A stretch of 64,000 nt of DNA from Azolla caroliniana (lineage: Eukaryota > Plantae > Polypodiophyta): positions 11,284,001 through 11,348,000 of the forward strand of contig JBHGNT010000001.1 in the NCBI GenBank assembly GCA_043228905.1. The letters run 5' to 3'. Shown here piece by piece: positions 27,601-64,000 of the stretch (within the stretch, counting starts at the first letter, position 1; every line of letters begins with the position of its first letter). The notes beneath the pieces are model-generated. The model ran no database searches, was not told the origin of the DNA, and saw nothing but the letters and a program-made list of their open reading frames with translations. The position numbers and the translations under genes are program-made.

Positions 27601-28197
27601 CAAATGATATGCTTTGGGCCATCTATGCTCTATATGAGCAAGTCTCTGGGAGTGAAAGGTAGGGTTGGACCATGCAAGTAACTGTCCAACGGGCATGCCA
27701 AGAGTTAGCCGGTCAGCTACCCGGGATCATGTTGAGCGACAAGCTCAACCGGAGCCGGATCGGCTGAATAAGCCTGAGCCGGTAAGCGAGAGGAATCAGT
27801 ATGCCGGTGAGCAACTGAGCTGGTAAGCAGTAAGGAACCCAAACCCAAATTTGGCCTTAGAAGACATTAATATATCTTTCTTTCTTTTCTTTTCTTTCTC
27901 TCTCTGTTATGATATGGCAAGACTCAAACCCATGACCTTATACTACATGGGTCAAGCTCTCGACCATTAGACTATACATTGTAATACATAGAATATTATT
28001 TTCATTTATGTTTTATTATAGAAAATTAATGTATATTCCAAAATTCTCTGGAACATTCTAGAAACTTCAAGAGTATTCCTTAGAACACTATAAAAGGAGG
28101 CAGAAGGCATTATTTCGAACCAAATCGGTTCAACGCCAATCTTAAGCCTCCTAGCTATTGTACATTTTCTTCACATAATATATATCTTTTCTTATCA

Positions 28198-28251
<54 letters not shown>

Positions 28252-28529
28252 CCTCCCTCTCACTCACTCTTTCCTTCTCTCGAGAGTTCTTCACCTCTCT
28301 TAGTACTAATACTTCTTTTAGTACTAATTCCTTCTCTGTCTTAGTACTGTTCCTGACAGTTTGAACCGATTTTCCTACCTTCTGTCTCTCTCATTTCCTA
28401 CTAATCTCTTATTCCTCTTTTCTTTCATCCTATGGCCACTATTAGCGCTGAAGAATATCAATATGTTTTCTCGGAATTTCAATGCTTGAAAGAGAAGTTC
28501 CATGCTTTGGAATAAGAAAACCAACGGTT

Positions 28530-29582
28530 GATGGGGGATCTTCAACAAATCTCCTTAGAAAAACAGCAAACGCAACAACAGCATGGGGAACTTGCGTTAC
28601 GCGTGCAACAACTTGAAGCAACCATCGTAGCGATGCAACAACAAGGGCCCGGAACACAAGGGATTCATAAAGAACCCAAGATTGGCCTTCCCACGAAGTT
28701 CGATGGAACGCGATCGTAGTTTAGAGGGTTCCTTAACCAGGTACGATTAGTTATTCAAATGCATCCTTCCTGGTATCCCACCGATGCATCACGAGTGGGT
28801 TTAGTAGGCACTTTGTTAAGTGGCTCAACGTTGGCATGGTTCGCTCCACTATTAGAAAAGGAATCCCCGTTACTCAACAATTTGAAGAGTTTCTAGGTGA
28901 GTTTAAAGCATGTTTCGGAGATACTGACAGCATCAGGACCGCAATCAACAAAAATCGGCGATTACGCCAAGGTGACCGTCTAGCCTCCGCATATGCTGCA
29001 GATTTTCGCCTACTCGCCGCTGATATCCCTTGGGATGATCAAGCGTTGATGGAGCAATTCCATTATGGTTTACGCAACGACGTCAAGGATTTACTCTTGA
29101 CCTTCCCCGAAGAGCCAAAGTCCTTAACAAAAGCAATCAGTCGTGCGGTGAGATGTGACAACCGCCTCTTTGACCAACGTTCGGAACGACAACTACAGAT
29201 GCTGAGGGCAAGATCAGAGCCCACCTACGCCTCAGTGGTAGAAAGACCTCTTCCGAGGGAGTCATATAATGCGCCTCCAGCGAATACTTCGACTCCGATG
29301 GAGATTGACACTACACGTCGTCGAGGGCCATTATCCGAAGAAGAAAAGCAGCGACGCCGTACAAATCGACTATGTCTTTACTGCGGTGGACCAGGACATA
29401 TTGCAATAAATTGCCCCCATAGGCCAAGAAGACAGGTAAACCAAATAGTCGCTAGTTCTAATTGTACTAAACCCGAGCCTATTTTAGTAAGGATATCTGA
29501 TAGTCCTAATAGTACTAATAGCCCAGATCTAGCAAACAGATTTGATGTCCTTAGTCAGTTAGAAGAAGAGTTAAACGACTAA
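28530..29582 (+). pseudogene. Chromovirus gag (stop codons and frameshifts)
   Basis: KEPKIGLPTKFDGTRS, LRQG...YAADF, TPMEID and a CCHC knuckle. Confidence 0.88.
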
Positions 29583-29604
29583 GTCTAGCCAAAATAGGAG
29601 CCGT

Positions 29605-30675
29605 TGTCGTGAAGATCTGTCACTACGCGCGGATCGTGAGGCGGAACCGCCGGGGTTCTGGACCGGAAGGATTCAAAGTCGATACAAGCTTTGGCAAGAA
29701 AGTACTTAAGATAGATTGGGAAAGAGAGAAGTTGAGATTAAACGATTGAGAAAGATTGATTGAACTTTTAACTTTAGATTTAAGAAATAAGTTACACGAT
29801 CAATTTGATAACGAATTTCCTCCTCTTAATTTTCATAAAAAAAAACCGTGTTTTTTCTCCTCCCCCTTCCCTCTTTTATAGATGCTCTCATGCATATGAT
29901 GCATGTGAGGGTACAAGACATGCATAAATTGCATGTTTGCCATTTGGCGCTTATGTATTACATGTGGTGCATGATAACCATGTCACTCATTTTAGTTCTC
30001 ACGTATGAGAATTTACATGTAAAAGTACAATGATAGAAATATAATTTCAACTAAATAGCATGGCTTAATGGTAAACCAATTGACTCCTAACTTAGAGGTG
30101 CAAGGTTCGAATCCTTACTTGCCCTCCTTGTATATGTAAATATGTAAATATATTTATATATTTATTTATCTAGTTGCAGGACGTCGGTTAGCTGGATGCC
30201 GTCGGTTACCGGTGCCGTCGCCGGATACCGTGGGTTACCGGTGCCGCCGTCGGATGCCGTCGCCGGATCACCGGCTCCATCGCCGGTCCGGTTTTGGTTG
30301 GCCAAAACCCTTTACGAGTAGCTAGCCCACCTCCACTCTTAGTTCAAGTTACCTTGAACTCTCTATGCTCCACACATAGACACAAAGATAATATCTTTTG
30401 CTCCACCTTATATATGATGAGAGCTGTATTTGTCGTGCCTATGTGGGATATCTCACAATTTTCTCCTTTCCTTTTACAAACTTTATACCCTCATATCTTG
30501 ACATTTAGTTGTCCGTTTCTCGTGTAATAAAGTGCATTCGAAACCTCCATCATTTTGTACTTAGATATTAAATCTATTTAAAATGTTATCTTCACAATTA
30601 TTGTACTACGTGATTCATACTCGATTTCGTACGTTTTATAGGATTTTCACACTATTGGCGAAAATCTTCACGACA
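29605..30675 (-). mobile_element. Solo LTR 1 (gypsy; TGTCGTGA-type terminus)
   Basis: Perfect 12-bp terminal inverted repeat TGTCGTGAAGAT/ATCTTCACGACA; 4-bp TSD CCGT (29601-29604 / 30676-30679). TATA on the minus strand at 29874-29880. Termini resemble the LTR at 61263-62214. Confidence 0.88.
30054..30122 (+). promoter_or_regulatory. tRNA-like Pol III A-box/B-box module inside solo LTR 1
   Basis: A-box TGGCTTAATGG at 30061-30071 and B-box GGTTCGAATCC at 30104-30114 in a T-arm-like stem AAGG/CCTT; tRNA spacing. Confidence 0.75.
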
Positions 30676-30679
30676 CCGT

Positions 30680-33600
30680 TTGGTTGGACAGCCCTTGATC
30701 TGTGCAGCCCATTAGTGGTTCCATTCCCTCTAAGCAAGTTAGTGATGTGTTCGTAGCCCAAGTAATAGTTAGTACGAAAAGTACCCCTCAAGTACATGTC
30801 CTAGCACTCCTAGATTCTGGAGCTAACTCTTGCTTTATGGATAAGAAATTTGCTCAAGCTCATAAGATATCCCTAAGAAAACTCCAGTGTCCAGCCTCTG
30901 TAGTAGTCATTGATGGACGTCCCATTGCTTCTGGAAATGTCATAGAAGAGTCAGAGCCCATTAATATTGTCCTAGATAACTTAGCATGTGTAGTATCATT
31001 TAATATTATTAGTATCCCAGAACATCCCATAGTTTTAGGATTACTGTGGTTCGAGTTACATAACCCAGACATAGATTGGAGAACAAGAGAAATCCAGTGT
31101 CGACAAACCCAAGGGTCAACTCAGAAGATGGCAACCATTTCGCTACGTCGGTTGTGTAAAGAAGGGCACAAGGAGGAAATGTTCCTCTTTGCAATATCAG
31201 TAAACCCCTCCAACACCACTAAAGAAGGATCCACCGTTCAACTTCCCGAGAAGTATCGTCATTACGCCGATGTGTTCGATAAAGTACAAGACAACACACT
31301 TCCTCATCATCGAGCGTACGATTGCCCCATCGATTTACAACCGGGAAAAGAGCCACCATGGGGACCGATCTACAATTTGTCACCAACTGAGCTGGAAGTC
31401 TTTCGGGCCTATATAGAGGAGAATTTGGAAAATGGTTTCATTCGGCATTCGAAATCTCTAGCCGGCGTGCCCATTTTCTTCGTCAAGAAAAAGGATGGAT
31501 CGCTTCGTCTTGTTGTAGATTACCGTGGCCTGAATAAGGTTACAATGAAGAATAGGTATGCTCTTCCCCTTATCTCAAATATTTTAGAATGGATCAATGG
31601 TGCTAGGTTCTTCACGAAGATCGACTTACGGGGAGCATATAACCTCGTATGGATCTGACCAGGAGACGAATGGAAGACCGCGTTTCACACCAGATATGGG
31701 CACTTCGAGTATACGGTCATGCCGTTCGGCCTCACTAATGCACCGACAATCTTCCAGCACATGGCTAATGATATATTCCGAGATCTATTGGATGATTGTT
31801 TGATCATCTATTTGGATGATCTACTGGTTTATTTAAAGACCCAAGAAGAACATGATTCTCATGTACTATTAGTACTAAAACGACTTCGAGAACATGGTCT
31901 GTATGCAAAGCTGCAAAATGTAGTTTTGGGTGCAACCAAGTGGAATTTCTCGGCTACATCATTTCGTCAGAAGGCATCTCCATGGACCTAGCTAAGGTCA
32001 AAACGGTGGTAGAATGGCAGACTCCACGTTCGGTGCGGGATGTGCAATGCTTCCTAGGCTTTGCCAATTTTTACCGGAAGTTCATACAAGATTACTCAAA
32101 GATCGTTCTACCTCTCACACAACTTACCAAGAAGGGACAACCGTTCATTTGGTCTGAAGAAACGGACGTGGCTTTCGAGAGTCTTAAAAAGGCATTTACA
32201 TCGACTCTAATTCTAGCTCATGTCGATACGGAAAAACCATTCATTATCGAAGCTGACGCATCAGATTTTGCATTGGGGAGCATTCTGTCACAACAGGGGA
32301 ATGATGAGAAGCTACATCCTGTGGATTTTCACTCACGCAAGTTTGACGCCGCCGAAATCAACTACGAAATTAATGATAAGGAGCTATTGGCAATAGTGGA
32401 TTCTTTTATGCAATGGAGGCATTTTCTGGAGGGATCCTCTCATCCGGTCACCGTATTTAGTGACCATAAGAACCTTGCCTACTTTCAGGATGCTCGTGTG
32501 TTGAATCGACGTCAAGCTCGGTGGGCCCACTTCCTCACGCGTTTCGACTTCAAAATTACATATCGTCTGGGGAAGCACCAAGGGAAGGCCGATGCATTAT
32601 CACGGCGTTCGTACCTAGCACCCCGTCCCGGCGAGCCAACTTTCGATAACCAAAAACAAGTCATCTTGGGACCGGCAGGACTACAAGAAACAAAGATCTT
32701 TGACATGCCCATGGATTCCCGCGTTATCGATACCATACGCGAAGACTTGAAGACAGATGAGTTCGCCCAAGCTATACTAGCACAAATTGATCCCTCTCGA
32801 GCGTCGTGTTCACAGTCGCAACCACCAGGTACGGACTATCGGCAATTCAAATACCATGATGGATTACTCTTCTTTAAAGAACTTTTGTATGTTCCTAATG
32901 GTTCTTGCCGCCTTCAAGTAGTACAAAACTGTCATGACACATATACAGCTGGGCATTTTGGTAGTACTAAAACACTACATTTAGTACAACGATCATTCTG
33001 GTGGCCCTGTATGCGACAATTTGTCGAGGATTTTGTTCGGACTTGTGATACATGCTGTAGAGCAAAAATGCCAAGGCATAATCCATATGGTTTATTAGAA
33101 CCATTACCAATTCCAAGCAAGCCGTGGCAATCCATTGCTCTAGACTTCATCACAGATCTTCCAGTCTCTAAGGGGTTCAATGTGATTCTAACGGTGGTCG
33201 ATCGATATACGAAGATGGCTCATTTCTTGCCATGTACTAAGGAGATCTCCAGTGAAGACACTACCGAAATTGTCATGCGTGAAGTATGTCGGCATCATGG
33301 ACTTCCTGATAGTATCATCAGCGACCATGGACCCCAGTTCGTGTCAAAATTCTGGAAGCACCTTTTTAACATGCTCAAGGTCACTTGTAACCTCTCCTCC
33401 GGCTACCACCCACAAACTGACGGCCAAGCCGAACGAACCAATCAAACGCTGGAGCAGTATCTACGGTGCTTTCTCAGCTATCATCAGGATGACTAGGCAG
33501 ATATTCTCCACTTCGCCGAATTTGCCTATAACAACTCTATCCACGCATCCACGAAAGTTACGCCATTTTATGCTTATACGGGATGTCACTCCTGGTGGTG

Positions 33601-34230
33601 TGTACTTGAAACCCCAGAGGTGTCCACAAATCCTTGTGCAGAGGATCATTTGGAGAGGTTACGCAAGATACAAGCGGATTTATCTACTCATCTCCAACAA
33701 GCTCAACAAACACACAAGGTTTATGCGGATCGTCATCGACTCCCATCTAGTTTTAACTTTGGAGATCGGGTATGGCTACTCCGACGACACATCAAGACTA
33801 CTCGCCCATGCGAGAAGTTGGATTATCGGCGATTAGGTCCTTTCCATATTATCGGAAAGATTAATGATGTCGCTTTTCGTCTTGATCTACCTCCACAACT
33901 TCGGATACATCCGGTGTTTCATAGTTCTCTCCTCGAACCCTATCAAGAAAGCACCATCCCAGGACGTATTACACAGCCTCCACCCCCGATCGAGCTTGAA
34001 GATGGACCTGAGTACGAGGTTGCCGCCATCCTTGATTCCAAGCTTGTTCGCAACAAGCTCTACTATCTAGTCGACTGGCTAGGATATAGTCCCAGCGAGC
34101 GTACTTGGGAACCGATAGAGAATGTCACCAATGCTCGTGCTCTTCTTGAAGACTTCCATCGTGAATATCCAGACAAACTGGGTCCTCAATCGAAAACGAC
34201 TTGTTACACTCGTCGTTTTAAAGGGGGGAT
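30680..34230 (+). pseudogene. Chromovirus pol: PR-RT-RH-INT-chromodomain (stops and frameshifts)
   Basis: ORF pieces 30702-31658, 31719-31991, 31940-33496 and 33620-34312 carry the canonical motifs. Confidence 0.93.
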
Positions 34231-34244
34231 AGTGTCACGATATG

Positions 34245-34302
34245 GCAAGACTCGAACCCATGACCTTATACTACATGGGTCGAGCTCTCGACCATTAGAC
34301 TA
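34245..34302 (-). promoter_or_regulatory. tRNA-like A-box/B-box module at the U3 end of the chromovirus LTR (also 27917-27974, and 63439-63492 on +)
   Basis: The minus strand reads TAGTCTAATGG...GGTTCGAGTC with the T8-to-G53 offset of 45 nt. Confidence 0.7.
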
Positions 34303-34762
34303 TACATTGTAATACATAGAATATTATTTTCATTTATGTTTTATTATAGAAAATTGATGTATATTCCAGAATTCTCTGGAACATTCTAGAAACTTCAGGA
34401 GTATTCCTTAGAACACTATAAAAGGAGGCACAAGGTATTATTTCGAACCAAATCGGTTCAACGCCAGTCTTAAGCCTCCTAGCTATTGTACATTTTCTTC
34501 ACATAATATATATCTTTTCTTATCATCACTCTCTCTCTCTCTCTCGATCTCTCTCTCCCTCCCTCTCACTCACTCTTTCCTTCTCTCGAGAGTTCTTCAA
34601 CTCTCTTAGTACTAATACTTCTTTTAGTACTAATTCCTTCTCTGTCTTAGTATTGTTCCTGACACACACACACACACTCTCTCTCTGTGTTGTTCTTTCT
34701 AACGCTTCCGCAAGCAATCTTTAACATGGTATCAGAGCGCCTGGGTCATACAAGATGCACCA

Positions 34763-37700
34763 ACTACGCATCTTGGTCATACAAGATGCACCAGTACCTA
34801 CTTGGGCATGGCTACTGGAGTTATGTCGACGGAGTGAACGACTCAGCACCGGAGACGACACATAAGGACTTCCCAGTGTGGGAACAGGCAGCAAGTAGGG
34901 TGATGTACTGCTTCGCGTCCAGTGTCGGTGACCAGCTGCTCAGCCATATCCGTGACGCCAAGACACCGAAGGATGCTTGGGGAAACTTGAAAAAGGTTTT
35001 CTCCGCAAGCACCACTGCCCGGAAGCTGCAACTCAGACAAGAGTTGAGCAATGTTCGACAGAAGAACATGTCGGTGGCAGATTACACAGCCCGGATCAAA
35101 GGGATCTGTGACTCACTTGCCTCTATTAACGTCACCATAGAGGAAGACGAGATGGTGCAGGTCTGTCTTGGAGGCATGGTGTCCAAGTTCGGAGCTTTCC
35201 GGACTGCGGTTTGTACAAGGGAGAATACGCCCTCATTTTTCGACTTACAGTTGATGCTCCTTGTAGAGGAGAACCACGCTGGTGCATCTACCAGTGCATC
35301 CCCAGACAACCGGATGCTGTACACGGGAGCAGATCGGTCCCGTGGGCATGGTGGATGAGGCAGGTCGGCACACAATGGAGGTGGCCGGCAAGAGCAGGAA
35401 CGAAGGCACAATGAGCGTGCCGACAACAGTTCTAGGACTTCCACAAGCAGAGGGAGTCAAGGTGGTGCCGGAGGCTGGCAAGACAAATCCGCTACGAAAT
35501 GCTGGCACTGTGGCAAAAAGGGCCACAAGGAAAGCGAGTGTTGGAGAAAGCGTGCCGATTCGGACAAATCCGGATCCAGCAAGACCAGTAAGGAAGGACG
35601 GCAAAGCTTGCACTACGCAAATGGATCGGGAAGATCCAAGAACGGTAAGGGGCCAGCCTTGGTGATGAAGCACAAGGCAAACTCAATGAAGAAAACCACT
35701 TCCAAATCGGAGGAAGTGTGGTACGTTGACTCCGGCGCATCAAACCACATGACGAGCCACGAGGAGTGGTTCTCCTTTTTGGAGAAGCCGGATCAACCGG
35801 GAGTTGTCGAAACCGGAGACGACACTCCCCACTCGATCGTGCATGTCGGAGAAGTCCCTTTGAGCCACGTCGGACAGAGGGGGAAGTTGATGAATGTATT
35901 ACATGTTCCGACGATCACGAAGAACCTGGTGTCGGTCGGACAAATCGTCGACCAGGGGATGCAGGTGCGGTTTACGCACCTCAGGTGCTTCATTGAGGAT
36001 GAGGGTGAAGTTATTGCGCAAGGGCGCAGAGATGGGAGGAAGTTTATCCTCAACACCAATGATGTCGGCACCGCACTGTTTGCCAAAGGACAGAAGGTCG
36101 AGTCGGATATCGACCTATGGCACAAGCGGATCGGCCACGTCAACTACCAGAGGCTTCAAGACCTGCAACCGGAACAAGTCGTTTTCGGTTTGCCGAAGTT
36201 TAGCGGCCGGAGAGCCCAGATTTGTGAAGCCTGCCAACTCAGGAAGCAACACCGGCTTCCATTCCCCACTGAAAGAAATCGAAGCCGTAACAAGCTCGAT
36301 CTTATCCATTCGGATGTGTGGGGACCGGCACAAAATGTTAGCATTGGCGGGAGTCGATATTTCGTCTTCTTCATCGACGACTACACGCGGCATACGTGGA
36401 TCTACCTCATTGAGCGGAAGAGCGAAGTCTTCGAGTGTTTCCGGAGCCTCCAGAAGATGGTGGAACGGGAATCAGAGAGGAAGATCAAATGCCTACGGTC
36501 GGATGGCGGAAAAGAGTACTTTTCCGGCCAATTCAACAACTATCTGCAACAAAAAGGAATTCGGCGAGAATTCGGCTGCAGATACACACCACAACAGAAC
36601 GGTGTGGTCGAAGGAAGAATCGGTCGCTGATTGACGCGACTAGGGCAATGCTGGAGGAAAAGAGCATGCCCAAGTTCTATTGGGCGGAGGCGGTCCAAAC
36701 GGCCGTTTACATCCAGAACCGGATTGGGGACAAGGTGTCAGCTCACGAGCTGTATTTCGGGCGCAAGCCAAATTTGAGACACCTCCGGATATTCGACAGC
36801 TTAGCCTATGTACATGTGCCGGATGAGAAGCGGAGAAAGCTGGATGCAAAATCGGAAAAATGCATCCTAGTTGGCTATGCTCAAGAGCAAAAGGGGTATA
36901 AGTGTTATAACACCCGGACGAAGCAGGTCCGAGTCAGCTGAGATGTCGAGTTTGATGAATCGGCATCGTGGTATTCTTTACCAACTCTGACTTCCGATCC
37001 CGACCTGATGTCGAAGGATGGGGCTTGTGAGCCCGAACCGGCCCAGGTAGAGAAAGATGAAGCCGGGACTCAAGATGAGAGCTCGGAATCATTCCAGTTA
37101 AGCGGATTGAATGAGAGACTGGAGTCCAACCAGTCGGATGATGAGACGGCGAGTAGTGGAGACTCTGTCGTGCTCTCCCCGTGCAAGGAACCGAGGAGAC
37201 GGTTCACACGCAAAGAGAAAGGGAAGCAGAAGATGCCGGAATTCGAGACTGGCAATGATGAGTCGGATCGGTGCGTATATGACTTATGCAAGGACATAGG
37301 CAGATCTTTAGGAACGAAGATCGAACCGGCCAAGAAGGGTCTCATACTGGGTAACGGTGAGCTACGCCGGTCCACCCGCCAGAAGGATCTCGTTAAACGG
37401 TACAGGTATAACGAGTACATGGCACATCATTATGCGTACATGACCAAGGTCGCGGAAGTGCATGAGCTGTAGAGCTACGCAGAAGCGGCGAAGGACACAA
37501 ATTGGCATGCCGCTATGGAGGAAGAAATGCGGGCACTAGATGCCAACGGAACTTGGGACCTGGTTGACCCTCCCCATCACTGTAAAACTGATCGGATGCA
37601 AGTGGGTGTACAAGGTAAAGTACAATGCCGACGGTACAGTTACCCGGTACAAGGTTCGGTTAGTGGCGAAGGGATATGCGCAGACCCACGGAATCAACTA

Positions 37701-39306: not shown

Positions 39307-39701
39307 GAGGCCTGAAGCCGAAAATCGAATCGGAGGATACCAATTTGGACAAGAGCTGGAACGAGTCGGAGACAGCCGATTCAGATCAACAGACGGATCC
39401 GGATGAGTTGGATCAATGAGAGGCCAAGGAGACACGGACGCAGCGGAAGTCAATGCCATCGCGGAGGAACCGACGGATCGGCAAGCGCCGGAGTCATAGC
39501 AGCGAAGGAGCTAAGATGGGCCTATTGAGCAGACATGCCGAAGGTCGAGGCGCGCAGAACCAAAGGGGTCGCGGCAAACGGGACCGGACTGGACAAGGAG
39601 CGCGAGCAAGGCGAAGCGACGCCAGGAGAAGTCGGTTGGATGAACCGGCTGCCACAAAGGTTGACACTACGACCCTACCTCAGGTTGAGCTTGAGGGGGA
39701 G

Positions 39702-40038
39702 TGTTGAGCGGCAAGCTCAATCGGAGCCGGATCGGCTGAATAAGCCTGAGTCGGTAAGCGAGAGGAATTGGTATGCCGGTGAGCAACCGAGCCGGTAAGC
39801 AGTAAGGACCGGTGAGCTGGGGAGCCGGTATGCCGGATCCAATCCGTAATTGGTAGCCTAGTATAGGTTAGACTACTAGGCAGTTATAGTCTCGTAGTTA
39901 GTGTCTGATGCTCGTGTGAGCATTGAAGTACACCGTACTTCTAACAGTCCTGTGTGGACTTGTATAAATAGCGTTGATGAGCGCGTTGTAGATACAGAGC
40001 ACAAAGTATTCATATAATTTTTGAAAATAGTGTGTCCT

Positions 40039-46355: not shown

Positions 46356-49169
46356 GTCTTCAAGCACTTCGTCTTTGAACTTGATGGAGTATGCCCAAAC
46401 TTTCCGTGTACAATCATCTACGAATGTGATGAAGTACCAGGAGCCTCCTAGTGATGGATTTGGCATGGACCCACATATGTCTGTGTGCACGAGCCCTAGG
46501 GGTTGTCGTAACATCTCATAGTGGAGAGAGTGCGGACTTCGGGTATGTTTCCCATATCGACAATGGTCACAAAAGTCCTTCTTTGCCTGGAGTTTCGGAA
46601 TGTAGCCAACCAACATCAGCCGATCAAGTCCGGCTTGAGACATGTGGCCAAGTCGGCCATGCCATAAGTTTGTGTCGGTTTCCTCGGCTATGTTCACGGC
46701 CCCTTCAAGGTTGATCACCATCAATGGGTATAGATTATTATACTTATGCTCACTACCGATTTTGAGGTTTATGGCTATCTAGCACTCTTGCCCGTTTTCC
46801 AGTCAGACTGTGCCATTGGCATTGGCTGAATAGTTCAAGAACCATTCGATGTTGGGGGTCGTGTGAAATTTGGCGCCAGAGTCTAGTAGCCATGTGTGTG
46901 CAACTTGTGCACTGTAAAGGACTTCTCCGATCATTGGGTCCTCTAAGGAGAGGATTTCTCCAGATCGGGTGGCCGACTGGAGAGTGGTCGAAGTCGGAAC
47001 GTCCCGATTCCGCTCGGATCGTTGACCACTCTCTTTTCTTTTCATTGACCAACTGTCGGAAACATTGTGGCCAGCTTTCCTATAGTGTGTGCAATACTCA
47101 CTTGATTGGACCATTTTCGACTTCGACCGTTGTCGGTCACCCCTTGTTTTCGATCGGTTGTAGCGTCGATCGATGTCGTGAGGAATGTGCTTCATGATAT
47201 AAAAATGAGCTTATGTATTGTATTTAGTAGTATTTGAGAAACTTGAATCCACAACCTTATAAACCAAGCACAATGTATATACCACTGGGGTAGGCTATTT
47301 GGTTTTAGAAATGTTATGAAGAATGTGCTTCACTATATAAGAATAAACTTAAATATTATATTAAGTAAAATTGAGGAACTTGAACCCTCAACCTTGTATA
47401 TCAAGCACAAAGCATACACCACTAAGCTAAGTTATTTGTTTTAAGTATCCATCATTGTACTTATCCCATATATATTTTCATACATGGCAGCTCAAATGAG
47501 CATGAAGGCTATCATGCATCACATGCAATGCAAGTGCGCCAAATGGTGATCATGCATCACATGTAACTCATGCATTACATGCATGCCATGCTCCTACACG
47601 TTACCATATGCATAGCAATACTTATAAAAACAGGGGAAACAACAAAAGGAAATCAAGGAAGAGAAAGTTTGAGAATCAAACCCGAATCAAACAAATAAAT
47701 TAGCTTGTTGGTGAAGAGGCTCGTGTTTCCAAGTTGGAGTCAAGGGTTCGAATCAAGAGTTAGCAAAGAAAGAGTTCATCTTGCTATCAAGCGTTGTACA
47801 ACTGGTAAAATCATGTATTTTTAATATAAAGTTTGTTCTTATCATACCATTTCGATTCTTCAATCATACATCGTCTCTGTCTCTTATTCTTGCTCGTCTC
47901 TCTCTCGTACAATACTTTCAACTTTTGTTCTTGCTATGCTTAATCTTTGTGGTAAAATATTATCTTCTTAATATAAATCATGTTAATATCATATACTATT
48001 GCTTCTTGAGTCATATATTGTCTTTGTCTCTATTCTACGCTCGTCTCTTTGTCACACAATACTTCTAAACTCTTATTCTTCTTATCCTTAATCTTCCTAA
48101 CATTTGTGCGCAAGCCTTATAAAAGTTCCTTCAACTCTCCTTAACCTTAGTCCCTGCGACTTCGCCGTACGAACCACAACTACCTTGGCACCGATTCTGT
48201 CGGCTTGTTCGTTCATTCGACTCTGTCGGTCGAACGACTCGATCGAGTGATGGGCTTCTGCCGACTCATCGATTTTCGCCTGATGTCCTCTGTAAGGACT
48301 TGGCCGATTGTTTCGTCCAAGTTTAGGATTGGTCGACTATTGGCGTATGTCGTGCAAAATACCTCCCAACTCATTGGCAAGGTCGACAGGAAGGCAAGGG
48401 CTTTCACTTCTTCTTTGAAGTTGATCCCTTGTGACGAGAGCTCAGACAACACTCGACTGAAGGTGTTGATGTGGGAGGTCGCCGAATCAGTCTTTTTCAT
48501 CTTCATATTGAATAGTTGTTTGATCAAAATTAATTTCGAAGATGAGGACTTGTTCTCATAGACGGCCTGTAGTTTCTCCCACAATGAGAACGATGTCGTC
48601 TGTTTTGCCATGCTGAAGTTGACGTTTTCGGCTAGGTGCATTCAGATGGTGGATCATGCTATTTTGTCCACTGATCTCCACTCTTTTGCTGTCATCGAAG
48701 CAGGCTTTTCGTTGTGCCGAATGGCTTCAACTTGTCTTCAGATGATCAACACATCCTGCATCATCTCCTTCCATAGGGCATAATTTTTGTCATCGAACTT
48801 TCTGATTTCAACTCATGTTTCGGATGTTGAAGCCATATTCCTTTTATGAAAATAAGATTTCTAACCTGGCCTTTTCCTCTCAGCTTCTTCTGTTGTCTCT
48901 TGCCGCCGTGCAGCAAGGTCACTCTGATACCAGTTGTGGATGCATAGAAAACAACACACACAGAAAATACAGTGAATCGAGACTTAGATAGTAAATTGAG
49001 CTTTAATGGAAAGCTTCTTATTACTTCGTTCTCTCTCAGAGATACAATACTCTTCTCGTCATCAATCATTACAATGTTAGGTATTCACTTAAATACTAAG
49101 CCCTAACTTATTAATGAGTTCACACTCGAACGGATACCATTTGGGAGGAGTCGGCCTTTTATGCCAACA
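46356..49169 (-). mobile_element. Truncated Ty1/copia element D (5' LTR, PBS, gag, PR, part of INT); related to E
   Basis: LTR at 48935-49169 begins TGTTGGCATAAAAGG as in E. PBS at 48922-48932; WLLDSGA; LWHGRLGH; VHTD. Ends abruptly at 46356. Confidence 0.88.
47174..48190 (+). mobile_element. Solo LTR 2 (TGTCGTGA-type) inserted in copia D gag
   Basis: TGTCGTGA...CA ends with a 4-bp TSD TCGA/CCGA; removing it rejoins the gag frame (RIGRRYNRS). TATA at 47623. Same internal layout as solo LTR 1. Confidence 0.78.
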
Positions 49170-51613: not shown

Positions 51614-51666
<53 letters not shown>

Positions 51667-52253: not shown

Positions 52254-52308
<55 letters not shown>

Positions 52309-52603
52309 GAAGAGGTCGTTGCCTCTGTGTATTACCGCCGCCTGTGGCGAAGACAGTGAGCTCAAGGTTGTTGCCTTGTAGCTTCACCATTGTACATCTC
52401 TGTTTATAGTGATAGTTGGAGTTTGAGGACTCCCGTGGTTTTTTCCCATTTAGGGTTTTCCACGTGAAACATCCTGTGTACTCTTCTCTCTATTGTCTTT
52501 GTGCATTTTGTATTTCCTGTTTTCTGGGAGTTGATCCTATTCCTCGGTTGTGACCAAGCACTGTGTTCAACAAAGTGGTATCAGAGCGACGGTAACACAG
52601 AAA

Positions 52604-56423: not shown

Positions 56424-56809
56424 AGGGGGAGTTTGTTGGGATTACGGTCCCTCCGGATGGGATGGTCAGATGTCCGGGAATCGGGAATGAAGACCCCGGC
56501 TACGGAGCCGGATGATGAAGACCCCGGCTACGGAGCCGGATGATGAAGACCCGGTTCCGGATCCGGATGATGAAGACCCCGGCTACGGAGCCGGATGATG
56601 AAGACCCCGGCTACGGAGCCGGATGACGAATGTACCCGGAGAGAGATCCGGATGCGGGGACATATTTGTGAATATGTTTGCCAAGGGCCCTTGAGGCTAT
56701 ATTTGTAAATAGCCCGAAAGTCATATGTGTATAAATATGACTTAGGGCAAACAGTTTTGTGGTTACTCATTTTTCTGGTTTTTTCACTTAGAGAGAGCTA
56801 AGTGAGCAG

Positions 56810-56844
<35 letters not shown>

Positions 56845-57064
56845 GAAGAGGTCGTTGCCTCTGTGTATTACCGCCGCCTGTGGCGAAGACAGTGAGCTCA
56901 AGGTTGTTGCCTTGTAGCTTCACCATTGTACATCTCTGTTTATAGTGATAGTTGGAGTTTGAGGACTCCCGTGGTTTTTTCCCATTTAGGGTTTTCCACG
57001 TGAAACATCCTGTGTACTCTTCTCTCTATTGTCTTTGTGCATTTTGTATTTCCTGTTTTCTGGG

Positions 57065-57089
57065 TTTAGGGTTTAGGGTTTAGGGTTTA
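57065..57089 (+). repeat. Interstitial telomeric repeat (TTTAGGG)3TTTA
   Basis: Perfect Arabidopsis-type repeats directly after the LTR ...TCTGGG. Confidence 0.95.
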
Positions 57090-60000
57090 ACCGACGCCAA
57101 CATCACAGTCTAACTAGGCAACAGGCAGGAGTGCAAAATCGCAGGGACCGGAGAAGTTCCTATCTGATTGCCCGATGGCAACATGATCACCCTGCTCCGA
57201 GTTCGGCACATACTTAATCTGAAAAGGAGTTTGGTCTCCATCGGCATGCTAGCCGAACACGGGTACAAAACGACTCTAGGTGAGTCAATATGGATGATCA
57301 GTCGAGGAAACCTAAAGATAGGAGGCGGGCACAAGTACAATAACTTGTACCCAATGATGGAGATCAATCCAAAATGGGTCGTGAACGTAGCCGGAAAGAC
57401 CAACCCAAACCTATGGCATGGTAGATTTGGCCATATGTCTCAAGCCAAACTTGATCGACCGATGGCGGTCGGCTACATCTCGAAACTCCAAGCAAAGAAG
57501 GACTTCTGCGAGCATGTCGATACGAGAAATAGACTCGAAGTCTGCACGTTCTTCAGTACGAGATGGTTCGACAACCCCTAGAGCTCGTGCACAGAGATAT
57601 ATGTGGGCCCATGCTAGAGCGATCACTAGGAGGCTCTCGGTACTTAGGTCCAAAGATGAAGTGCTCGAGGTCTTCACTCAGTGGATATCTGAAGTGGAGA
57701 ATCGATCGGGATACAGAGTGAAGATACTCAGATCTGACAACGAAGGAGAATATACCTCCAGAGCCTTCAAGAAGTACCTTTTCATCAAAGGGATCCAACA
57801 TCAAAAGACCGCTCCCTACACACCCATGCAGAATGGAGTGGCAGAATGGATCAACCGAACGATCCATGAGAGAGTGACGGCAATACTCCAACAAGTTGGA
57901 CTGAAGCTGGAGTTCTGGGCTGAGGCATTGCAGACAACAATATACTTGGTAAATCTATCACCGACGAAGGAAATCAGGCTCAAAGGGCCACAGGCACTAT
58001 CGTCAGGCAAACAACCGACCTACATTAGGCTCCGTGCATTTGGATGTGAAGCCTACGTGTTCATCCCCAGGGAGAAAAGGACCAAGTTGGCACCCCATGC
58101 GACGAAATGCATATTTCTTGGTTATGGAACCGATGGGGACTTTGGCTACCGGCTATGGGACCCTGAGAACCGGAAACTGATCCGGAGCAGTGACGTAGTC
58201 TTCAATGAAGGCTCTATCTTCTCTCAATAGAACCAACAAAAAATAGTTGGTAAAAAGGTATCCTTCAAAGATGACAACGACGTCATAGAAGGACCGACCC
58301 ATCGGGCTGACTTAGAGATTCGACAAACAGTCGAACTCGACCAAGCTGACAACATACCTATTGACTTCGAATTGGTAGGAAGTCCACTAGTCGAATTCGA
58401 AGACAAAGCCATCAAAGACAGAGCCGATTCGACAAGAGTCGAAGAAGGCAAAGTCAACAAGATGCTAGTAGGAAACAAAACCAAGTCGATAAAGTCCATA
58501 GGGGAGGACAACGTGACACCACCGAAATCCCAACTTGGGGGTGGGTCACCTAACAAGACTCCTAACACAAATGGTTCAACAAATACCGATCGCCCAACAG
58601 AGCTGATCAAAAAATCCGAACCACTTATCTTCGCACCCAGGAGATCTGGACGAGCTCGAAGACCAACAAAGTTTTTTCAATCAGGCCTCGACTATGTTAA
58701 CTACACCGATGCAAACAAACCAAGCAGTTATGAAGAAGCTATGGCTGCAACGGATGCCGATACATGGCTAAAATCCATGAAATCCGAAATGGACTCTATT
58801 CACAAGAATGAGACATGGGAGCAAGTCGAACTACCAATAGGAAGAAAGACGCTACCTTGCAAATGGGTTTTCCGATACAAATATGTATCTGACTCAGAGA
58901 AACCCAAGTACAAACCTCGGCTTGTCAAGAAAGGGTTGAAACAAGAACATGGGGTTGACTACGACGAGATATTCTCACCACTAGTCAAGATGACGACCCT
59001 CCAACTCTTACTAGGAGTCGTGGCGATAGAAGAACTAGTGTTAGAGCACCTAGATGTAAAGAAGGCATTCCTACACGGAGATATGGAAGAAGACATCTAC
59101 ATGTCTCAACTAGCAGGCTTCATGGCGACGCGGGCATAAAGTCACCTCGTATGTCGACTAAAGAAAAGCCTCTATGGCTTGAAAGAAGCGCTGAGGATGT
59201 GGTACCAAAAATTTGAATCCTACATCAGGCAACTTGGATACAGCCGATCCGAGTTCGAATCATGCATGTATATTTGGCAACTGGCCGACCAGTCTAGGAT
59301 TTATTTGATTCTATATGTCAACGACATGTTGATTGCAAGAAGCAATCAAGAAGAGATCGGAAAGTTGAAGTGGAGCCTTCACGACAAGTTCGCGATGAAG
59401 GAACTCGGACAAGTCCGTCACATACTGGGCATGAGGATCGAGCGAAATTGTACGACCAAGACTCTTCGACTCTCCCAGTTCGACTATTTCTGGAAGGTGT
59501 TGAGGTGCTTCAACATGCAGAATGTGAAGCCAACACCAACACCGCTTCCAACATTGATCCGACTATCGGACAGACACTCTCTTCAACTGACAAGAAGAGA
59601 GAGCTTAATGGAAAGATGTCATACGTATTAGCCGTAGGGAGTATCATGTACGCAATGGTGGCGACCTGACCTGACCTAGCCTATGTCGTAGGGGTGTTCA
59701 GTCGGTACATGTCAAATCTAGGACGAAAGCATTGGGAGGCCGTCAAGCACATCTTCAGGTACCTGAGAGGGACCGAAGATACACAACTGACTTTCAGTTT
59801 GACAACCTCATCCGAAGGCGAAGGCTACACTGACTCCGACTAAGCCAGAAATACGGACAATCAGAAGTCAACATCGAGCTATATTTTGACCTATGGTGGC
59901 GGTGTGATATCATGGAGGTTGAAGCTTCAGGAATGCGTGGCATTGTCAACCATAGAGGCCGAGTACATAGCAACATCGGAGGCAGCGAAGGAAGCGATTT

Positions 60001-61262
60001 GGCTACACCGACCGTGTGCTACCTTCTCAACTACAAGCCAAATCGACCAACCAGCGCCGACCATCTATTGCGACTCACAGAGCGCAATTCACCTCATTAA
60101 CAATCCCGTCTATCATGGAAAGATGAATCGCATTGAGGTACGATATCATCACATCCCGGAGCTCATGACTTAGAAGAGGCTCAAAGTTCGGAAGATCGAC
60201 ACTGAGGTGAACATCGTCGATTGCGTGACCAAGCCACTCCCAGATCAATGCTTCAGAGCACTAAGGACAAAGATGGGACTACGACAAGCGACCGAGCAGA
60301 AGAAAGCCAAACGAGGAGCAGAAGCTAAGAGTCAATCGAATCAATCATGATAATGAGCCATGCCAGGCTCGACACGGACCTCACCTTTGCCGACTTGACT
60401 ATATGCTGATCAACTTATAACATAACTTCATATTAGTGTTGTAATCTAGGTTTACCGGGGAGACAACCCCAAACACATGTACATGTATGAAAGAGTAGTC
60501 CTTTTACGGGTGAGTTTGTTGGCATAAAAGGTTGACTCCTTCCACTTTGTACCCTAGTGTGAACTCGCCCATATAGTTAGGGCTTAGTATATAAGCGATA
60601 ACCTAACGTTGTAAAGAGGGGGATTTTTTGCTTGATTATTCTTGTACAGAGTCTCTGAGAGAGAGGAGAGAGAAAGAGAGAGAACAGAAATAAAGAATGC
60701 TTCCATTAAAACTTCATCTGTTTATCTAACATCTGTCTATATCTTCTTGCCCTCCTTTTGTGTTCTTTCCTGAGCATAACTGACAAGTCCTCACATACAT
60801 TTCTGTGCCTATCGGTCCATTAGTGAGCACACGAAATGCAACGAGACTTCGGTCGCGAAAACCAGTTGTTGTTCGAGATACAGAGCGAAAAGAAGTACTC
60901 CCTTCAACTTTCGTAGATATGCTTTGTCTCCATGTTGACCATCAAATATAAAAACATTGCCGATTCAATGGAGCAAAGATACAAATTAGCAAGTACTAGA
61001 AGCAACTTACCCTAGTGGTAAATCATTACACTACAAGCATTATGCCTTGGGTTCGAGACCCAGCTGTTCCTTATTTTCCCTAGGGTTTTCTACTTTGGTC
61101 TTCTTCACCCTATTTCTCTTTAGGGTTTTGTTGGGGTCTTCTTCCTCATCGTCGTATGGATTGAGTCTTTACATCAGTCAAGGGTTTAGTTCGGTAAAGA
61201 GCTCATATGTCCTAGGGGGTTTCGCTTCTGCTCTGTCTCCTATGCAATACCTTGGTCGGCGT

Positions 61263-63052
61263 TGTTGTGAAGTTATTGCTTCACGATGTCAAAACAATGT
61301 GAAAAATCTATAGCGGGAAATTTTCTATATGGAGCTTGTGACGAGGAGCATGTGCAAATTTTCTACAAGCTTCGGAAGGATTAATGTTACTCGGGACACA
61401 AATGTAATTATGTCAAAAGGGGGAGTCAAAATTAAATGAGGGTTATTTCTATAAATTTTCAAATGTACAACTACAAAATTGAATTTGTAGAATCAATAAA
61501 TATAAATAATAGTAAATATAAATAAATAAATAATAATAATATATAAATAAATACCAACCGCCTACATGAGGCGGTTTGTCAACCGCCTCAAGAGGGTGGT
61601 AGGGCGGTTGACCACCCTATATAAGCCATGCCCATGGTGGCTAAAGAGGGGGGAAGAAGGAGAAGGGGAAGAAGAAGAAGAGGAAGGAAAAGCGAGTGAA
61701 GAAGCTCGTGTGGGTGTGGGATGTAGAGCTCACCAAAGAAGATGGTGGCCTGAATAAATCATTTAAAGAAGAGTTAAAGAAAAGAAGGAAAATACAAGAA
61801 AAGGAAGAAGTTGAAGTGGTGTATCTTAGATGCCTCTTTGTAAACAAAAGGTTGAAAGTTTGAATCCTTTTAGAACAACTTCTTTTGGTAATCAAATTTT
61901 GTAATATAAATATTCTATATATAAAGTGAAAGACAAAGACAAATAAATAGAAACCAAAGAGATTGAAGTGGTCTATCTCAAACGCTTATACTCAAATAGA
62001 GTTCATGAGTTCAAGTCTTGCGAAGTAACTTTTGGCAAATAAATATTGTAAGTGGTTGTTTTACAAATAAAATTCTTTTCGCGACAACGTCGCATCTATC
62101 TTGCCTTCTCGGCTTCTTGTCATTGCACCATTTGTGATTAAATCTTGTCACCCCGATCATCCCCGAGTCACAGAATCCCAATATTTGCGACACACAACCA
62201 CAATCTTCTCGACACAAATTTGGTGAACCCGACGTGAAGTGTCGCTAACAAGGGGAGTTTCAGAGTTGAAATTTTCAAATAGAAGGGCAGAAAATCAAAG
62301 AAAATGGCGGATAAAGGTGCCAACACAGACATGGCAAATAAGGGCTTCAATGCAGAGATAGCAAGTTTCATGATGACGATGATAAATCCGATGCTTCAAG
62401 TGCAAAGTGCAATGAACCGGATGGAAAGTGAGTTAACGCTTGCCATACGAATGGTTATCGAAAGGATAAGGAAATTTAATGGCAAGGACGTCACTCGGTT
62501 CCTTGAGGTCTACAAATACGAGATGGCCAGTAGAGGGGCAACCGGGGTACAAATGGTGTCACATATCAACCGGGTTTGCACACTTGATGTCCAACTGAGG
62601 GTAACGGAATTATCAGAGAAATTCTGTAAAGATTGGGCCAGGTTCCATCAAGCATTGCTTGATGAATATATGTTAGACGACCGGACCAGAATGTCAAAGA
62701 AAAGCTTTCTCGAATGGACCGAGAAAGGAGGTAAAGGACTCTCAATTTCAGAATTGTTGACAGAGTTTGAGAAAAGATATAATGAGTTCTCAGTGAAAGC
62801 CCGAGAACTATTACAGTTAGAAAAGGTGGATTTATTCGTCCGAGCGGCAAATAAATCTTTTAGAAAAGATATCACCATCCTTCTAGAAGACCGGACAAGC
62901 ACAACCGGTTTGGTGTCCGATTGGGCGGAAGTACTCGAGTCTTGTCGAGTATTAAGAAGGAGGGTGCTAAGGATGGAGGATGGCTATGACAATAGAACAA
63001 AGACAACAGCCAGAGAACATCCAAAACAAGAATCAGGAACTCAAACGGATGT
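61263..63052 (+). mobile_element. Ty3/gypsy element with tRNA-Trp PBS: 5' LTR and gag N-terminus
   Basis: LTR about 61263-62214 (TGTTGTGAAG...CTTCTCGACA); PBS TGGTGAACCCGACGTGAA at 62221-62238; gag ATG at 62304 (FNGKDVTRFL..Y), interrupted at 63052. Confidence 0.82.
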
Positions 63053-64000
63053 TGTTAGGAATAGTGTTGAGACAGAGAAGAAATTAGTACTAAGAGAGAA
63101 ATATTACTACTAAGAGGAATAGAGGGTGTAGAACACTCGAGAGAAGGAGGGAGGGAGAGAGAGAGAGAGAGAGAGAGAGTGAGTGAGTGAGAGATCGAGG
63201 GAGAGAAAATGATGATAACAAAAGATATATATTATGTTAAGACAATATAAAATAGTAGCTATGAGGCTTAAGACTGGCGTTGAATTGATTTGGTTCGAAA
63301 TAATTCCTTGTGCATCCTTTTATAGTGTTCTCAGGAGTAGTCCCGAAGCTTCTAGAATGTTCCAGAGAAATATGGAATAAACATTAATTTTCTATAGTAA
63401 AATTTAAATAAAAATAATATTTTACGTATTACAATAGATAGTGCAATGGTCAAGAGCTTGACCCATGTGACATGAGGTCATGGATTTGAGTCTTGTCATA
63501 TCATGACACTATCCCCCCTTTAAAACAACGAGTGTCACAAGTCGTTTTGGATTGCCGTTTAGCTCGTTGGGACTATATCCTAGCTAATCGACTAAATAGT
63601 AGAGCTTGTTGCGAACAATCTTGGAATCAAGGATGGCCGCAACCTCGTACTCAGGTCCATCTTCAAGTTCGATCGAGGGTGGAGGTTGTGGAATATGTCC
63701 TGGGATGGTGTTGTCTTGATAGGGTTCGAGGAGAGAACTATGAAACACCAGATGTATGCGAAGTTGCGAGGGTAGATCGAGACGAAAAGCGACATCATTA
63801 ATCTTTCCGATAATACAGAAAGGACCTAATCGCCGATAATCCAACTTCTCACATGGGTTAGTAGTCTTCATGTGTCGTCGTAGTAGCCATACTTGATCTC
63901 CAATGTTAAAACCAGATGGAAGCCGATGAAGATCCGCGTAAACCTTGTGTGTTTGTTGAGCTTGCTATAGATGAGTAGATAAATCTGTTTGTATCTTGCA
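63053..64000 (-). mobile_element. Second Tcn1-like chromovirus copy: INT C-terminus, broken chromodomain, PPT and 3' LTR
   Basis: LTR 63053-63508 is a diverged reverse complement of 34233-34664; KLDYRRLGPF and EYEVAAILDS are present. Runs off the window. Confidence 0.93.

What the first reader, a model, noticed from the sequence alone, without database searches (positions are those of the whole stretch)
27905..63508. LTRs of two different gypsy groups carry tRNA-like Pol III A-box/B-box modules, mostly pointing outward in U3
Seen: A-box and B-box pairs at tRNA spacing (T8-to-G53 offset 44-45 nt) occur in the chromovirus LTRs (TAGTCTAATGG...GGTTCGAGTC, 34302-34249 minus; also 27974-27921, and 63439-63492 decayed). 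They also occur in solo LTR 1 (TGGCTTAATGG...GGTTCGAATCC, 30061-30114) and solo LTR 2 (TAGCTTAGTGG...GGTTCAAGT at 47429-47378 minus, a tandem decayed copy at about 47235-47295, and a sense copy TAGCTTGTTGG...GGTTCGAATC at 47701-47754). Weaker traces lie at 61808-61868. The sequence between the boxes differs and no cloverleaf forms, yet the boxes and spacing persist. Known: A/B boxes bind TFIIIC, tDNAs act as chromatin barriers in yeasts, and Cassandra elements carry 5S Pol III promoters in their LTRs. Inference: these LTRs have co-opted tRNA-type promoters, possibly convergently, as insulators protecting the Pol II promoter or as sources of outward/antisense RNA. I know of no description of this but cannot search.
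Basis: partly seen in the sequence, partly recalled or inferred. Interest (0 to 1): 0.85.

Follow-up and report, generated by a model that had tools for sequence, protein, structure and literature searches.

The report
tRNA promoter boxes in retrotransposon ends
Two distantly related groups of protein-coding jumping genes in a seedless plant carry the two promoter boxes of a tRNA gene in their end repeats, mostly facing backwards next to their own promoter, and keep these boxes while the tRNA shape is lost, so they likely recruit the tRNA-gene factor TFIIIC to help keep that promoter usable.

Summary
The modules are real and family-wide. A strict A/B-box pattern has 3,337 genome matches against 0 for its reversed control. 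Hosts are Tcn1-type chromoviruses and Phygy-type non-chromoviruses. In samples chosen without the module, 84 of 100 Tcn1-type LTR starts (controls 0-3) and 30 of 30 LTRs of one Phygy sublineage (controls 0) carry it antisense in U3. Between families, box positions are 82-95% identical and spacers 35-55%. tRNA stems are lost, and a terminator is mostly missing. Copia LTRs lack it (23 of 24 pairs; the exception is a nested Phygy piece). Some Phygy families carry it in sense or lack it. Best reading: a TFIIIC docking site kept by selection (inferred; no binding or RNA data). Against: 132 of 451 exact-flank matches in one family have the invariant B-box C mutated, some in both LTRs. Closest known: Helenus TRIMs (Kojima 2024), which are short and non-coding. 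Ten paper searches found no report for these autonomous lineages. The scan noted LTR-borne tRNA-like modules before in fungal and animal genomes.

The parts
27905..28358 (+). 5' LTR of a Tcn1-type chromovirus (family F1), inserted in the 5' LTR of a copia element; TATA at 28088; self-primer at 28122-28133
   Evidence: LTR pair 92% identical; 12-nt complement of the PBS lies just downstream of the TATA
27921..27974 (-). A/B-box module, antisense, at the U3 end of the 5' LTR; this copy has C56 changed to T
   Evidence: score 24.0
28359..28376 (+). Self-priming PBS (complementary to the element's own R region, not to a tRNA)
   Evidence: Tcn1 self-priming per PMC6317226 passages
28737..34232 (+). 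Tcn1 gag-pol with chromodomain, broken by stops/frameshifts and by solo LTR 1
   Evidence: Pfam gag, protease, RT, RNase H, integrase, SH3, Chromo
29605..30675 (-). Solo LTR 1 (Phygy-type family F2), 4-bp TSD CCGT, TATA at 29881
   Evidence: 37 of 40 insertion ends are NCGN; full elements have RT, RNase H and integrase but no chromodomain
30061..30113 (+). A/B-box module, antisense to F2, in U3, T8 180 nt upstream of the TATA
   Evidence: present in all 29 other copies aligned, one with an A-box deletion, 9 with C56T
34233..34664 (+). 3' LTR of the Tcn1-type element
34249..34302 (-). Intact antisense A/B-box module; B box ends 17 nt from the LTR end, T8 about 113 nt upstream of the TATA
   Evidence: present in 29 of 29 other close copies
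47174..48190 (+). Solo LTR 2 (Phygy-type family F3), TSD TCGA/CCGA, TATA at 47622, inserted in a minus-strand copia
47241..47293 (-). Second, tandem antisense module (weaker A box, C61 lost); part of a ~136-nt duplication shared by the family
   Evidence: recognisable in 27 of 29 other copies
47377..47429 (-). Main antisense module of F3; anticodon and T arms can still pair; T4 run follows the B box
47701..47754 (+). Sense module downstream of the TATA (predicted R/U5)
61008..61059 (+). Further A/B module outside the F4 LTR; host element not assigned
   Evidence: score 21.5; not part of F4 copies
61263..62214 (+). 5' LTR of a third Phygy-type family (F4), TATA at 61617, followed by a tRNA-Trp PBS at about 62221-62237
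   Evidence: PBS matches the 3' end of this genome's tRNA-Trp genes
61809..61866 (+). Degenerate sense module 1 of F4 (weak A box, spacing 48)
61961..62017 (+). Degenerate sense module 2 of F4 (spacing 47-48); scored >=11 in 19 of 24 other copies
63053..63508 (-). 3' LTR of a second, older F1-type element on the minus strand, with a decayed antisense module at 63439-63492
   Evidence: score 17.4

Best explanation
Tcn1-type chromoviruses and part of the Phygy lineage carry a tRNA-derived A-box/B-box pair as a fixed part of the LTR; it likely works as a DNA docking site for TFIIIC that would help keep the element's own Pol II promoter accessible in heterochromatin, and is likely kept by selection on the elements. 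Shown: the module's presence, position (outer U3, about 110-195 nt upstream of the TATA in the families where a TATA was found), mostly antisense orientation, conserved box positions and spacing, loss of tRNA structure, and in Tcn1 the lack of a terminator. Inferred: (1) origin by capture of tRNA or SINE-head sequence, at least once per lineage; read-through copying of a tRNA during reverse transcription would give the antisense orientation. (2) TFIIIC binds the B box. (3) With an antisense module, TFIIIB would sit on the AT-rich stretch between the module and the TATA, making a head-to-head promoter pair and a barrier at the element's outer edge, as tDNAs and ETC sites do in yeasts. (4) Any Pol III transcript would be a by-product. 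The benefit is predicted to be quantitative, since copies with a broken box still transposed.
For: Module-blind Tcn1 sample: the first 100 listed of 2,315 PPT+LTR-start matches. Antisense score >=12 in 84 and >=15 in 67, vs 3/0 sense and 0/0 for both reversed controls. Exact B box in 70 of 100 vs 0, 0, 0 and 1 in controls; B box with <=1 mismatch in 17 of 19 sequence clusters. Full modules occur on both sides of the deepest split of the integrase/chromodomain tree, down to about 50% identity. Phygy: first 30 listed of 1,418 anchor matches all score >=19, controls 0. Between family representatives, identity is 0.88-0.95 (Phygy) and 0.82-0.83 (Tcn1) at the 11 core box positions, vs 0.52-0.55 and 0.35-0.46 in the spacer. 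Spacing stays at 43-44. Acceptor, D and anticodon pairing is near shuffled levels. G57A, which promoters tolerate, is fixed in many families; C56T is not the commonest state in any Tcn1 cluster of two or more copies. Several Tcn1 clusters keep only the B box, as ETC sites do (PMC3395662 introduction). A sense-oriented U3 module in family F5 has a spacer like the antisense F2 spacer (z 6-7; 25 identical columns of 33), which fits an orientation-tolerant DNA element.
Against: No binding, chromatin or RNA data. In F2, 132 genome matches carry C56T vs 319 intact. Some elements have it in both LTRs (on contigs C1-C5, pairs up to 17 kb apart: 16 intact/intact, 2 mixed, 2 mutant/mutant), so box-dead copies transposed. 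The F2 B-box CpG is decayed in 10 of 30 copies vs a 10% mean at 50 other CpGs, so inserted copies show no protection. The within-family test is weak: shared vs singleton variants in core vs other columns, p=0.07; B core vs spacer, p=1.0. The between-family identities use modules located by score (86 of 100 and 38 of 40 kept), which inflates core identity somewhat. Four of 7 Phygy LTR pairs, both pairs classed as G2 gypsy and 23 of 24 copia pairs lack the module yet are intact, many with near-identical LTRs. The Phygy anchor came from module-bearing families. tRNA spacers can reach z about 6 against each other, so F2-F5 homology is likely, not proven.
Confidence: 0.5

Rival explanations
1. The modules are working Pol III promoters and the RNA is what matters: outward or antisense read-through RNA (from the 3' LTR back over the PPT and the integrase end) would tune the element or feed small-RNA pathways; sense copies could make Helenus-like transcripts.
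For: Both boxes and tRNA spacing are kept in most families, with AT-rich DNA upstream. The F3 main module and 30 of 30 F5 copies have a T4 run within 40 nt of the B box. Foamy viruses make Pol III RNAs from U3 (PMC3993851 passages).
Against: A T4 run lies inside the LTR in only 5 of 67 Tcn1 modules, so 5'-LTR transcripts would run into random flanks. There is no conserved fold or spacer sequence. Orientation and position vary within Phygy. The strand bias in C>T is no stronger in the module than in the rest of the LTR.
Confidence: 0.2
2. Neutral passenger: a tRNA or SINE head was captured once in each lineage and is carried along in U3 with no effect.
For: Frequent C56T, some inherited through transposition. 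Weak within-family signal. Many intact families lack the module. Primer read-through would explain the antisense bias without function (inference).
Against: Boxes and spacing persist across families whose integrase C-termini are about 50% identical, while spacer and flanks have fallen to 0.33-0.46 identity. No TSD or tail around the modules.
Confidence: 0.13
3. RNA-level role in reverse transcription: on the genomic RNA the antisense module is complementary to tRNA D and T loops and would help a tRNA bridge the RNA ends for minus-strand transfer, as proposed for a tRNA-like motif in HIV-1 U3-R (recalled, paper not seen).
For: Antisense orientation in U3 is what this model needs. Phygy is tRNA-Trp primed, and its spacing of 43 equals that of tRNA-Trp.
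Against: Tcn1 is self-primed yet has the module most consistently. Phygy spacers are no closer to tRNA-Trp than to Lys, Ile or Arg (mean 0.40 vs 0.40-0.44; only 7 tRNA types compared). Sense copies could not anneal.
Confidence: 0.08
4. Integration role: TFIIIC bound near the cDNA end, or at resident LTRs, would steer or attract insertions (landing pad).
For: In Tcn1 the B box ends 7-54 nt from the LTR end. Other AI notes describe LTR-borne landing pads in fungal genomes (unchecked).
Against: 3 modules in 36 kb of F1/F2 insertion flanks vs 3.7 expected. The distance to the end is not fixed, and in Phygy the module is 250 nt or more inside.
Confidence: 0.07

Closest known systems
Helenus TRIMs (TRIMp3; Kojima 2024, PMC10886601; parts 1-4 of 6 of the text and searched passages read, supplements not seen)
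   Same: tRNA-derived sequence inside the LTR, conserved at boxes A and B, no functional cloverleaf, probably several origins. The paper also remarks that 'not a few' Repbase LTRs hold tRNA-like parts.
   Different: Helenus is non-coding and 311-1,263 bp long, its box pair is proposed to be the element's own promoter, and its only plant case is Selaginella. The paper analysed only TRIMs and argues that autonomous partners must use Pol II. Here the hosts are 5-7 kb gag-pol elements with a TATA promoter, and most modules are antisense and upstream of it.
Cassandra and Ajax TRIMs (as described in PMC10886601)
   Same: Pol III internal promoter captured in an LTR; Cassandra is a plant element.
   Different: 5S-derived (type 1) promoter, non-autonomous, drives the element's own transcript.
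Foamy virus U3 Pol III miRNA cassettes (Kincaid 2014, PMC3993851; passages read)
   Same: A/B-box Pol III units inside the LTR of an autonomous retroelement, alongside a Pol II promoter.
   Different: They have terminators and hairpins and make defined small RNAs. Here hairpins are not conserved and Tcn1 lacks a terminator.
ETC sites, S. pombe IR B boxes and tDNA barriers (PMC3395662; introduction read)
   Same: B-box sites that bind TFIIIC and can insulate or block heterochromatin, often between divergent promoters.
   Different: Fixed host loci in yeasts and mammals, shown by experiment. Here the site is mobile, in thousands of copies, in a plant, and untested.
Tcn1 and Phygy clades (Neumann 2019, PMC6317226; Novikova 2010, PMC2864245; passages read)
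   Same: Chromodomain plus self-priming (Tcn1); no chromodomain, compact, NCGN target (Phygy).
   Different: The passages read mention no tRNA-like boxes in the LTRs of either clade.

Membership tests
Helenus / TRIMp3 | tRNA-derived A and B boxes inside the LTR | tested here: met
Helenus / TRIMp3 | Short, non-coding element (about 0.3-1.3 kb) | tested here: not met
   Hosts encode gag-pol; LTR pairs 5-7 kb apart
Helenus / TRIMp3 | Box pair placed to transcribe the element itself | tested here: not met
   Main modules are antisense and upstream of a TATA; only the secondary F3/F4 copies and F5 are sense
tRNA gene | Cloverleaf with acceptor stem | tested here: not met
   ARAGORN 0 genes; best Rfam 23.8 bits, below 29; stem pairing near shuffled levels
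SINE insertion | Own TSD and tail, copy-specific, also found free-standing | tested here: not met
   Longest flanking repeats 7-8 nt, within shuffle range; module shared by whole families. An ancient SINE origin is not excluded; no SINE library was available
Type 2 Pol III promoter / ETC site | A box and B box at tRNA spacing | tested here: met
Type 2 Pol III promoter / ETC site | TFIIIC binding, with or without Pol III transcription | not testable with these tools
   needs ChIP or EMSA
Type 2 Pol III promoter / ETC site | T-run terminator (for a discrete transcript) | tested here: inconclusive
   Inside the LTR in 5 of 67 Tcn1 modules; present in F3 and in 30 of 30 F5 copies
Tcn1 chromovirus (F1) | Chromodomain at integrase C-terminus | tested here: met
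   PF00385 E=2.7e-14
Tcn1 chromovirus (F1) | Self-priming instead of a tRNA PBS | tested here: met
   12-nt complement at 28122
Tcn1 chromovirus (F1) | Placement in the Tcn1 clade by RT phylogeny | not testable with these tools
   No REXdb reference set on hand; the name rests on the two features above
Phygy (F2-F5) | NCGN 4-bp target, no chromodomain, compact coding region | tested here: met
   F2: 37 of 40 ends NCGN; no Chromo hit in F2/F3 ORFs; F3-F5 share PPT/PBS type and gag or integrase similarity
Phygy (F2-F5) | Placement in the Phygy clade by RT phylogeny | not testable with these tools
   No reference set on hand

The most novel reading that the evidence does not exclude
Autonomous plant LTR retrotransposons have twice turned a tRNA promoter into a portable TFIIIC barrier that shields their Pol II promoter inside heterochromatin, scattering thousands of TFIIIC sites, more than the likely number of real tRNA genes, through this genome.
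Probability: 0.35. Interest if true: 0.85.

Novelty: new variant of a known kind. Interest (0 to 1): 0.62.

Why it matters
If TFIIIC binds these sites, it would be a host-factor route by which heterochromatin-dwelling retrotransposons stay transcribable. It would also give a ready test of whether TFIIIC barriers, shown in yeasts and animals, work in plants. Over 3,300 strict matches would be a large mobile pool of TFIIIC sites that could affect chromosome folding and compete with tRNA genes. It extends tRNA-box capture from miniature non-coding elements to protein-coding ones, which the Helenus paper did not analyse. Such modules may also inflate tRNA-gene counts in seedless plants: a review reports over 7,500 for one fern (PMC13578239 passage). 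I did not test that link, and ARAGORN calls none of these modules.

Tried and rejected
Expression: no RNA holder listed. Contigs of four runs (three coded organisms, not on record as RNA) cover parts of the F2 LTR, some including the module, at 95-99%. This shows relatives share the family and says nothing on transcription. Only part of the LTR was laid, so the outer U3 was not compared. A third, copia lineage with the module: rejected, since the one copia pair holds a nested piece of Phygy family F5. A free-standing SINE donor: the best candidate turned out to be the F5 LTR. Donor tRNA: not identified among 7 tRNA types; most types were not fetched. Module-specific strand-biased C>T as a trace of Pol III transcription: rejected, the bias is LTR-wide. 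Landing pad: no enrichment. Conserved RNA fold: none, apart from a 51-63 pair in Phygy (0.92 vs 0.46 shuffled; relatedness not controlled) and weak signals at 52-62 and the acceptor in Tcn1. Literature: ten searches listed no description for Tcn1 or Phygy LTRs. Passages of PMC7466625, PMC2864245, PMC6786969, PMC12859917 and the P. patens T2T preprint gave none either. Subscription journals and Repbase entries were not searchable, and the Helenus and REXdb supplements, which may list such LTRs, were not seen. The HIV-1 U3-R paper was not held, so that rival is recalled. The host plant group was not determined.

Full report
Setting. The window is a nest of LTR retrotransposons in a 523-Mb plant genome. 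The element at 27905-34664 has gag, protease, RT, RNase H, integrase and a chromodomain. Its PBS is complementary over 12 nt to its own LTR just downstream of the TATA, the self-priming that Neumann et al. give for the Tcn1 clade of mosses and club-mosses (passages). Solo LTR 1 (F2, 29605-30675, minus), solo LTR 2 (F3, 47174-48190) and the LTR at 61263-62214 (F4) belong to compact gypsy elements with no chromodomain hit. F2 has NCGN at 37 of 40 insertion ends, and the PBS of these families matches this genome's tRNA-Trp 3' end. That fits Phygy. Clade names rest on these features, not on a tree with references. The host group (moss, club-moss or fern) was not determined.

Observation. Every module listed is present, with T8-G53 at 44-45 nt. 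A strict pattern gives 3,337 genome matches and 0 for the reversed control. In 784 kb of repeat-rich sequence, partly chosen around pattern hits, a box score of 21 or more was reached 66 times, vs 0 reversed and 0, 0 and 1 in shuffles. ARAGORN finds no tRNA in the window. Rfam gives one sub-threshold tRNA match, on the F3 module.

Family-wide or copy-specific? The module is in all 29 other close copies aligned for F1, F2 (one A-box deletion) and the main F3 site (one A-box deletion). No target-site duplication flanks it. To avoid choosing by the module, I took the first 100 listed of 2,315 matches to a PPT+LTR-start pattern. An antisense module scored >=12 in 84 and >=15 in 67; the sense control gave 3 and 0, and both reversed controls 0. 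An exact B box lies in the first 80 nt in 70 of 100 (controls 0, 0, 0, 1). With one mismatch allowed it is in 89 (controls 19, 10, 1, 3) and in 17 of 19 clusters. Seventy-five of the 100 have an integrase/chromodomain hit upstream, and 59 of those score >=15; the other 25 look non-autonomous and 8 score >=15. Full modules occur on both sides of the deepest split of the tree (24 rows, at most 3 per cluster, only hits of 140 residues or more). For Phygy, the first 30 listed of 1,418 matches to an upstream anchor all score >=19 with controls at 0; of 10 more, hand-picked as divergent, 7 do. That anchor samples one sublineage only. Among LTR pairs in the 784-kb sample, modules scoring >=19 were in 8 of 9 Tcn1, 3 of 7 Phygy, 1 of 24 copia, 0 of 2 classed as G2 gypsy, 0 of 3 other gypsy and 0 of 6 unclassified. 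The copia case is a nested piece of another Phygy family, F5.

What is conserved. Between representatives (86 of 100 Tcn1 and 38 of 40 Phygy copies kept, score >=11), the 11 core box positions are 0.82-0.83 and 0.88-0.95 identical, the spacer 0.35-0.46 and 0.52-0.55, and the flanks 0.33-0.52. Locating modules by score inflates the core figure somewhat. Acceptor, D and anticodon pairing is at or near shuffled levels. The exceptions are pair 51-63 in Phygy and weak signals at 52-62 and the acceptor in Tcn1, with relatedness not controlled. Several Tcn1 clusters have lost the 5' half of the A box but keep the B box. Among Tcn1 copies the B core reads TTCGA in 39, TTCAA in 35 and TTTGA in 3 of 86. 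No tRNA of the seven types compared stands out as donor, and the F1 and F2 spacers are unrelated (z 0.6-0.7).

Layout. In Tcn1 the B box ends 7-54 nt from the LTR end, and T8 lies about 110-170 nt upstream of the TATA where one was found, with AT-rich DNA between. A T4 run follows inside the LTR in only 5 of 67. In F2 and F3 the antisense module is 180-195 nt upstream of the TATA. F3 adds a tandem antisense copy and a sense copy downstream of the TATA. F4 has only two degenerate sense copies downstream. F5 has a sense copy in U3, with a TATA 100-170 nt downstream in 25 of 30 copies and a T4 run in 30 of 30. Its spacer resembles the antisense F2 spacer (z 6-7), which suggests the module was inverted, although two tRNAs can also reach z about 6.

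Results against a function. In F2, 132 genome matches carry C56T vs 319 intact, and mutation of that C abolishes TFIIIC binding in tRNA genes (introduction). Some elements carry it in both LTRs, so box-dead copies moved. In 30 close F2 copies this CpG is changed in 10 (at least 7 separate changes), against a 10% mean at 50 other CpGs. The within-family comparison of shared and singleton variants points the right way (0.18 vs 0.49 shared variants per column in core vs other columns), but the ratio test gives p=0.07, and 1.0 for B core vs spacer. Many intact families lack the module. Insertion flanks are not enriched for modules (3 vs 3.7 expected). Why C56T (132) is so much commoner than G57A (9 of the first 100 intact matches listed) is unexplained.

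Mechanism. The conserved positions are those TFIIIC reads, while RNA structure, spacer, terminator and orientation are free. I therefore favour a DNA docking site for TFIIIC (0.5). With the usual antisense layout, TFIIIB would sit between the module and the TATA, forming a head-to-head pair and a barrier at the outer edge, by analogy with ETC sites and tDNAs. The benefit would be quantitative. Binding, barrier action and benefit are inferred, not shown. Rivals are a functional Pol III RNA (0.2), a neutral passenger (0.13), tRNA annealing during reverse transcription (0.08; Tcn1 needs no tRNA primer) and integration steering (0.07).

Comparison with what is known. Helenus TRIMs have tRNA-derived, box-conserved, non-cloverleaf LTR sequence. 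They are short and non-coding, and the paper set longer LTRs aside while noting that 'not a few' carry tRNA-like parts. Foamy viruses have Pol III cassettes in U3 that make defined RNAs. These elements fail the size and coding tests for Helenus, so they are not members. Ten searches listed no description for Tcn1 or Phygy LTRs; Repbase, subscription journals and supplements were not seen. Earlier AI notes of this scan describe LTR-borne tRNA-like modules in fungal and animal genomes. The look-ups on this genome showed 8 of 45 and 8 of 20 fitting notes, none on this feature, and the sequence look-up found nothing.

Verdict. Observation confirmed and extended genome-wide; interpretation partly supported. 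New variant of a known kind, interest 0.62.

Noticed in passing
window 29605-30675 and loci L032-L060: Phygy-type F2 inserts almost only at NCGN (37 of 40 ends), a CpG-centred 4-bp target; already described for Phygy.
   Followed up: yes
F2 B box, genome-wide; tRNA-Ile cluster in L183: At the B-box CpG, C56T is several-fold commoner than G57A although other F2 CpGs decay evenly (70 TG, 64 CA). Three of seven tRNA-Ile(TAT) copies in one cluster show the same C56T. Unexplained.
   Followed up: partly
G000:C1:16632427-16639501 (L406, L407): A copia element carries a ~0.9-kb piece of a Phygy F5 LTR, module included, in both of its LTRs: a snapshot of how a module could pass between superfamilies.
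   Followed up: partly
L263, L279, L360, L269, L342, L278: Non-autonomous Tcn1-type elements with an internal tandem-repeat array in place of integrase; their A boxes are weaker than in most coding families.
   Followed up: partly
G000:C1:14506392-14515651, 16684089-16691125, 17153147-17167375: Gypsy elements with a TGGCACG-type PBS-like site facing both LTRs and no obvious PPT; other notes of this scan treat this as dual tRNA priming.
   Followed up: no
window 19787-22036 minus: 749-residue open frame with ten WRKY19-type zinc-finger repeats (PF24906), encoded by 75-nt repeats.
   Followed up: no
L420 (G000:C2:18736659-18737054): Four head-to-tail ~99-nt copies consisting of the F5 module alone.
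   Followed up: no
G000:C8:17801960-17818951 and C16:4989495-5105637; C5:17988000-18019000: Tandem arrays of tRNA-Trp-type 3' ends (about 1.2-kb period on C8) and of tRNA-Lys genes.
   Followed up: no
window 1447-1500 plus: Shortened A/B-like pair followed by a long T run, SINE-like.
   Followed up: no
L124 (G000:C12:14168000-14173000): 3-kb gag-only derivatives of Phygy F3 that keep full LTRs.
   Followed up: no
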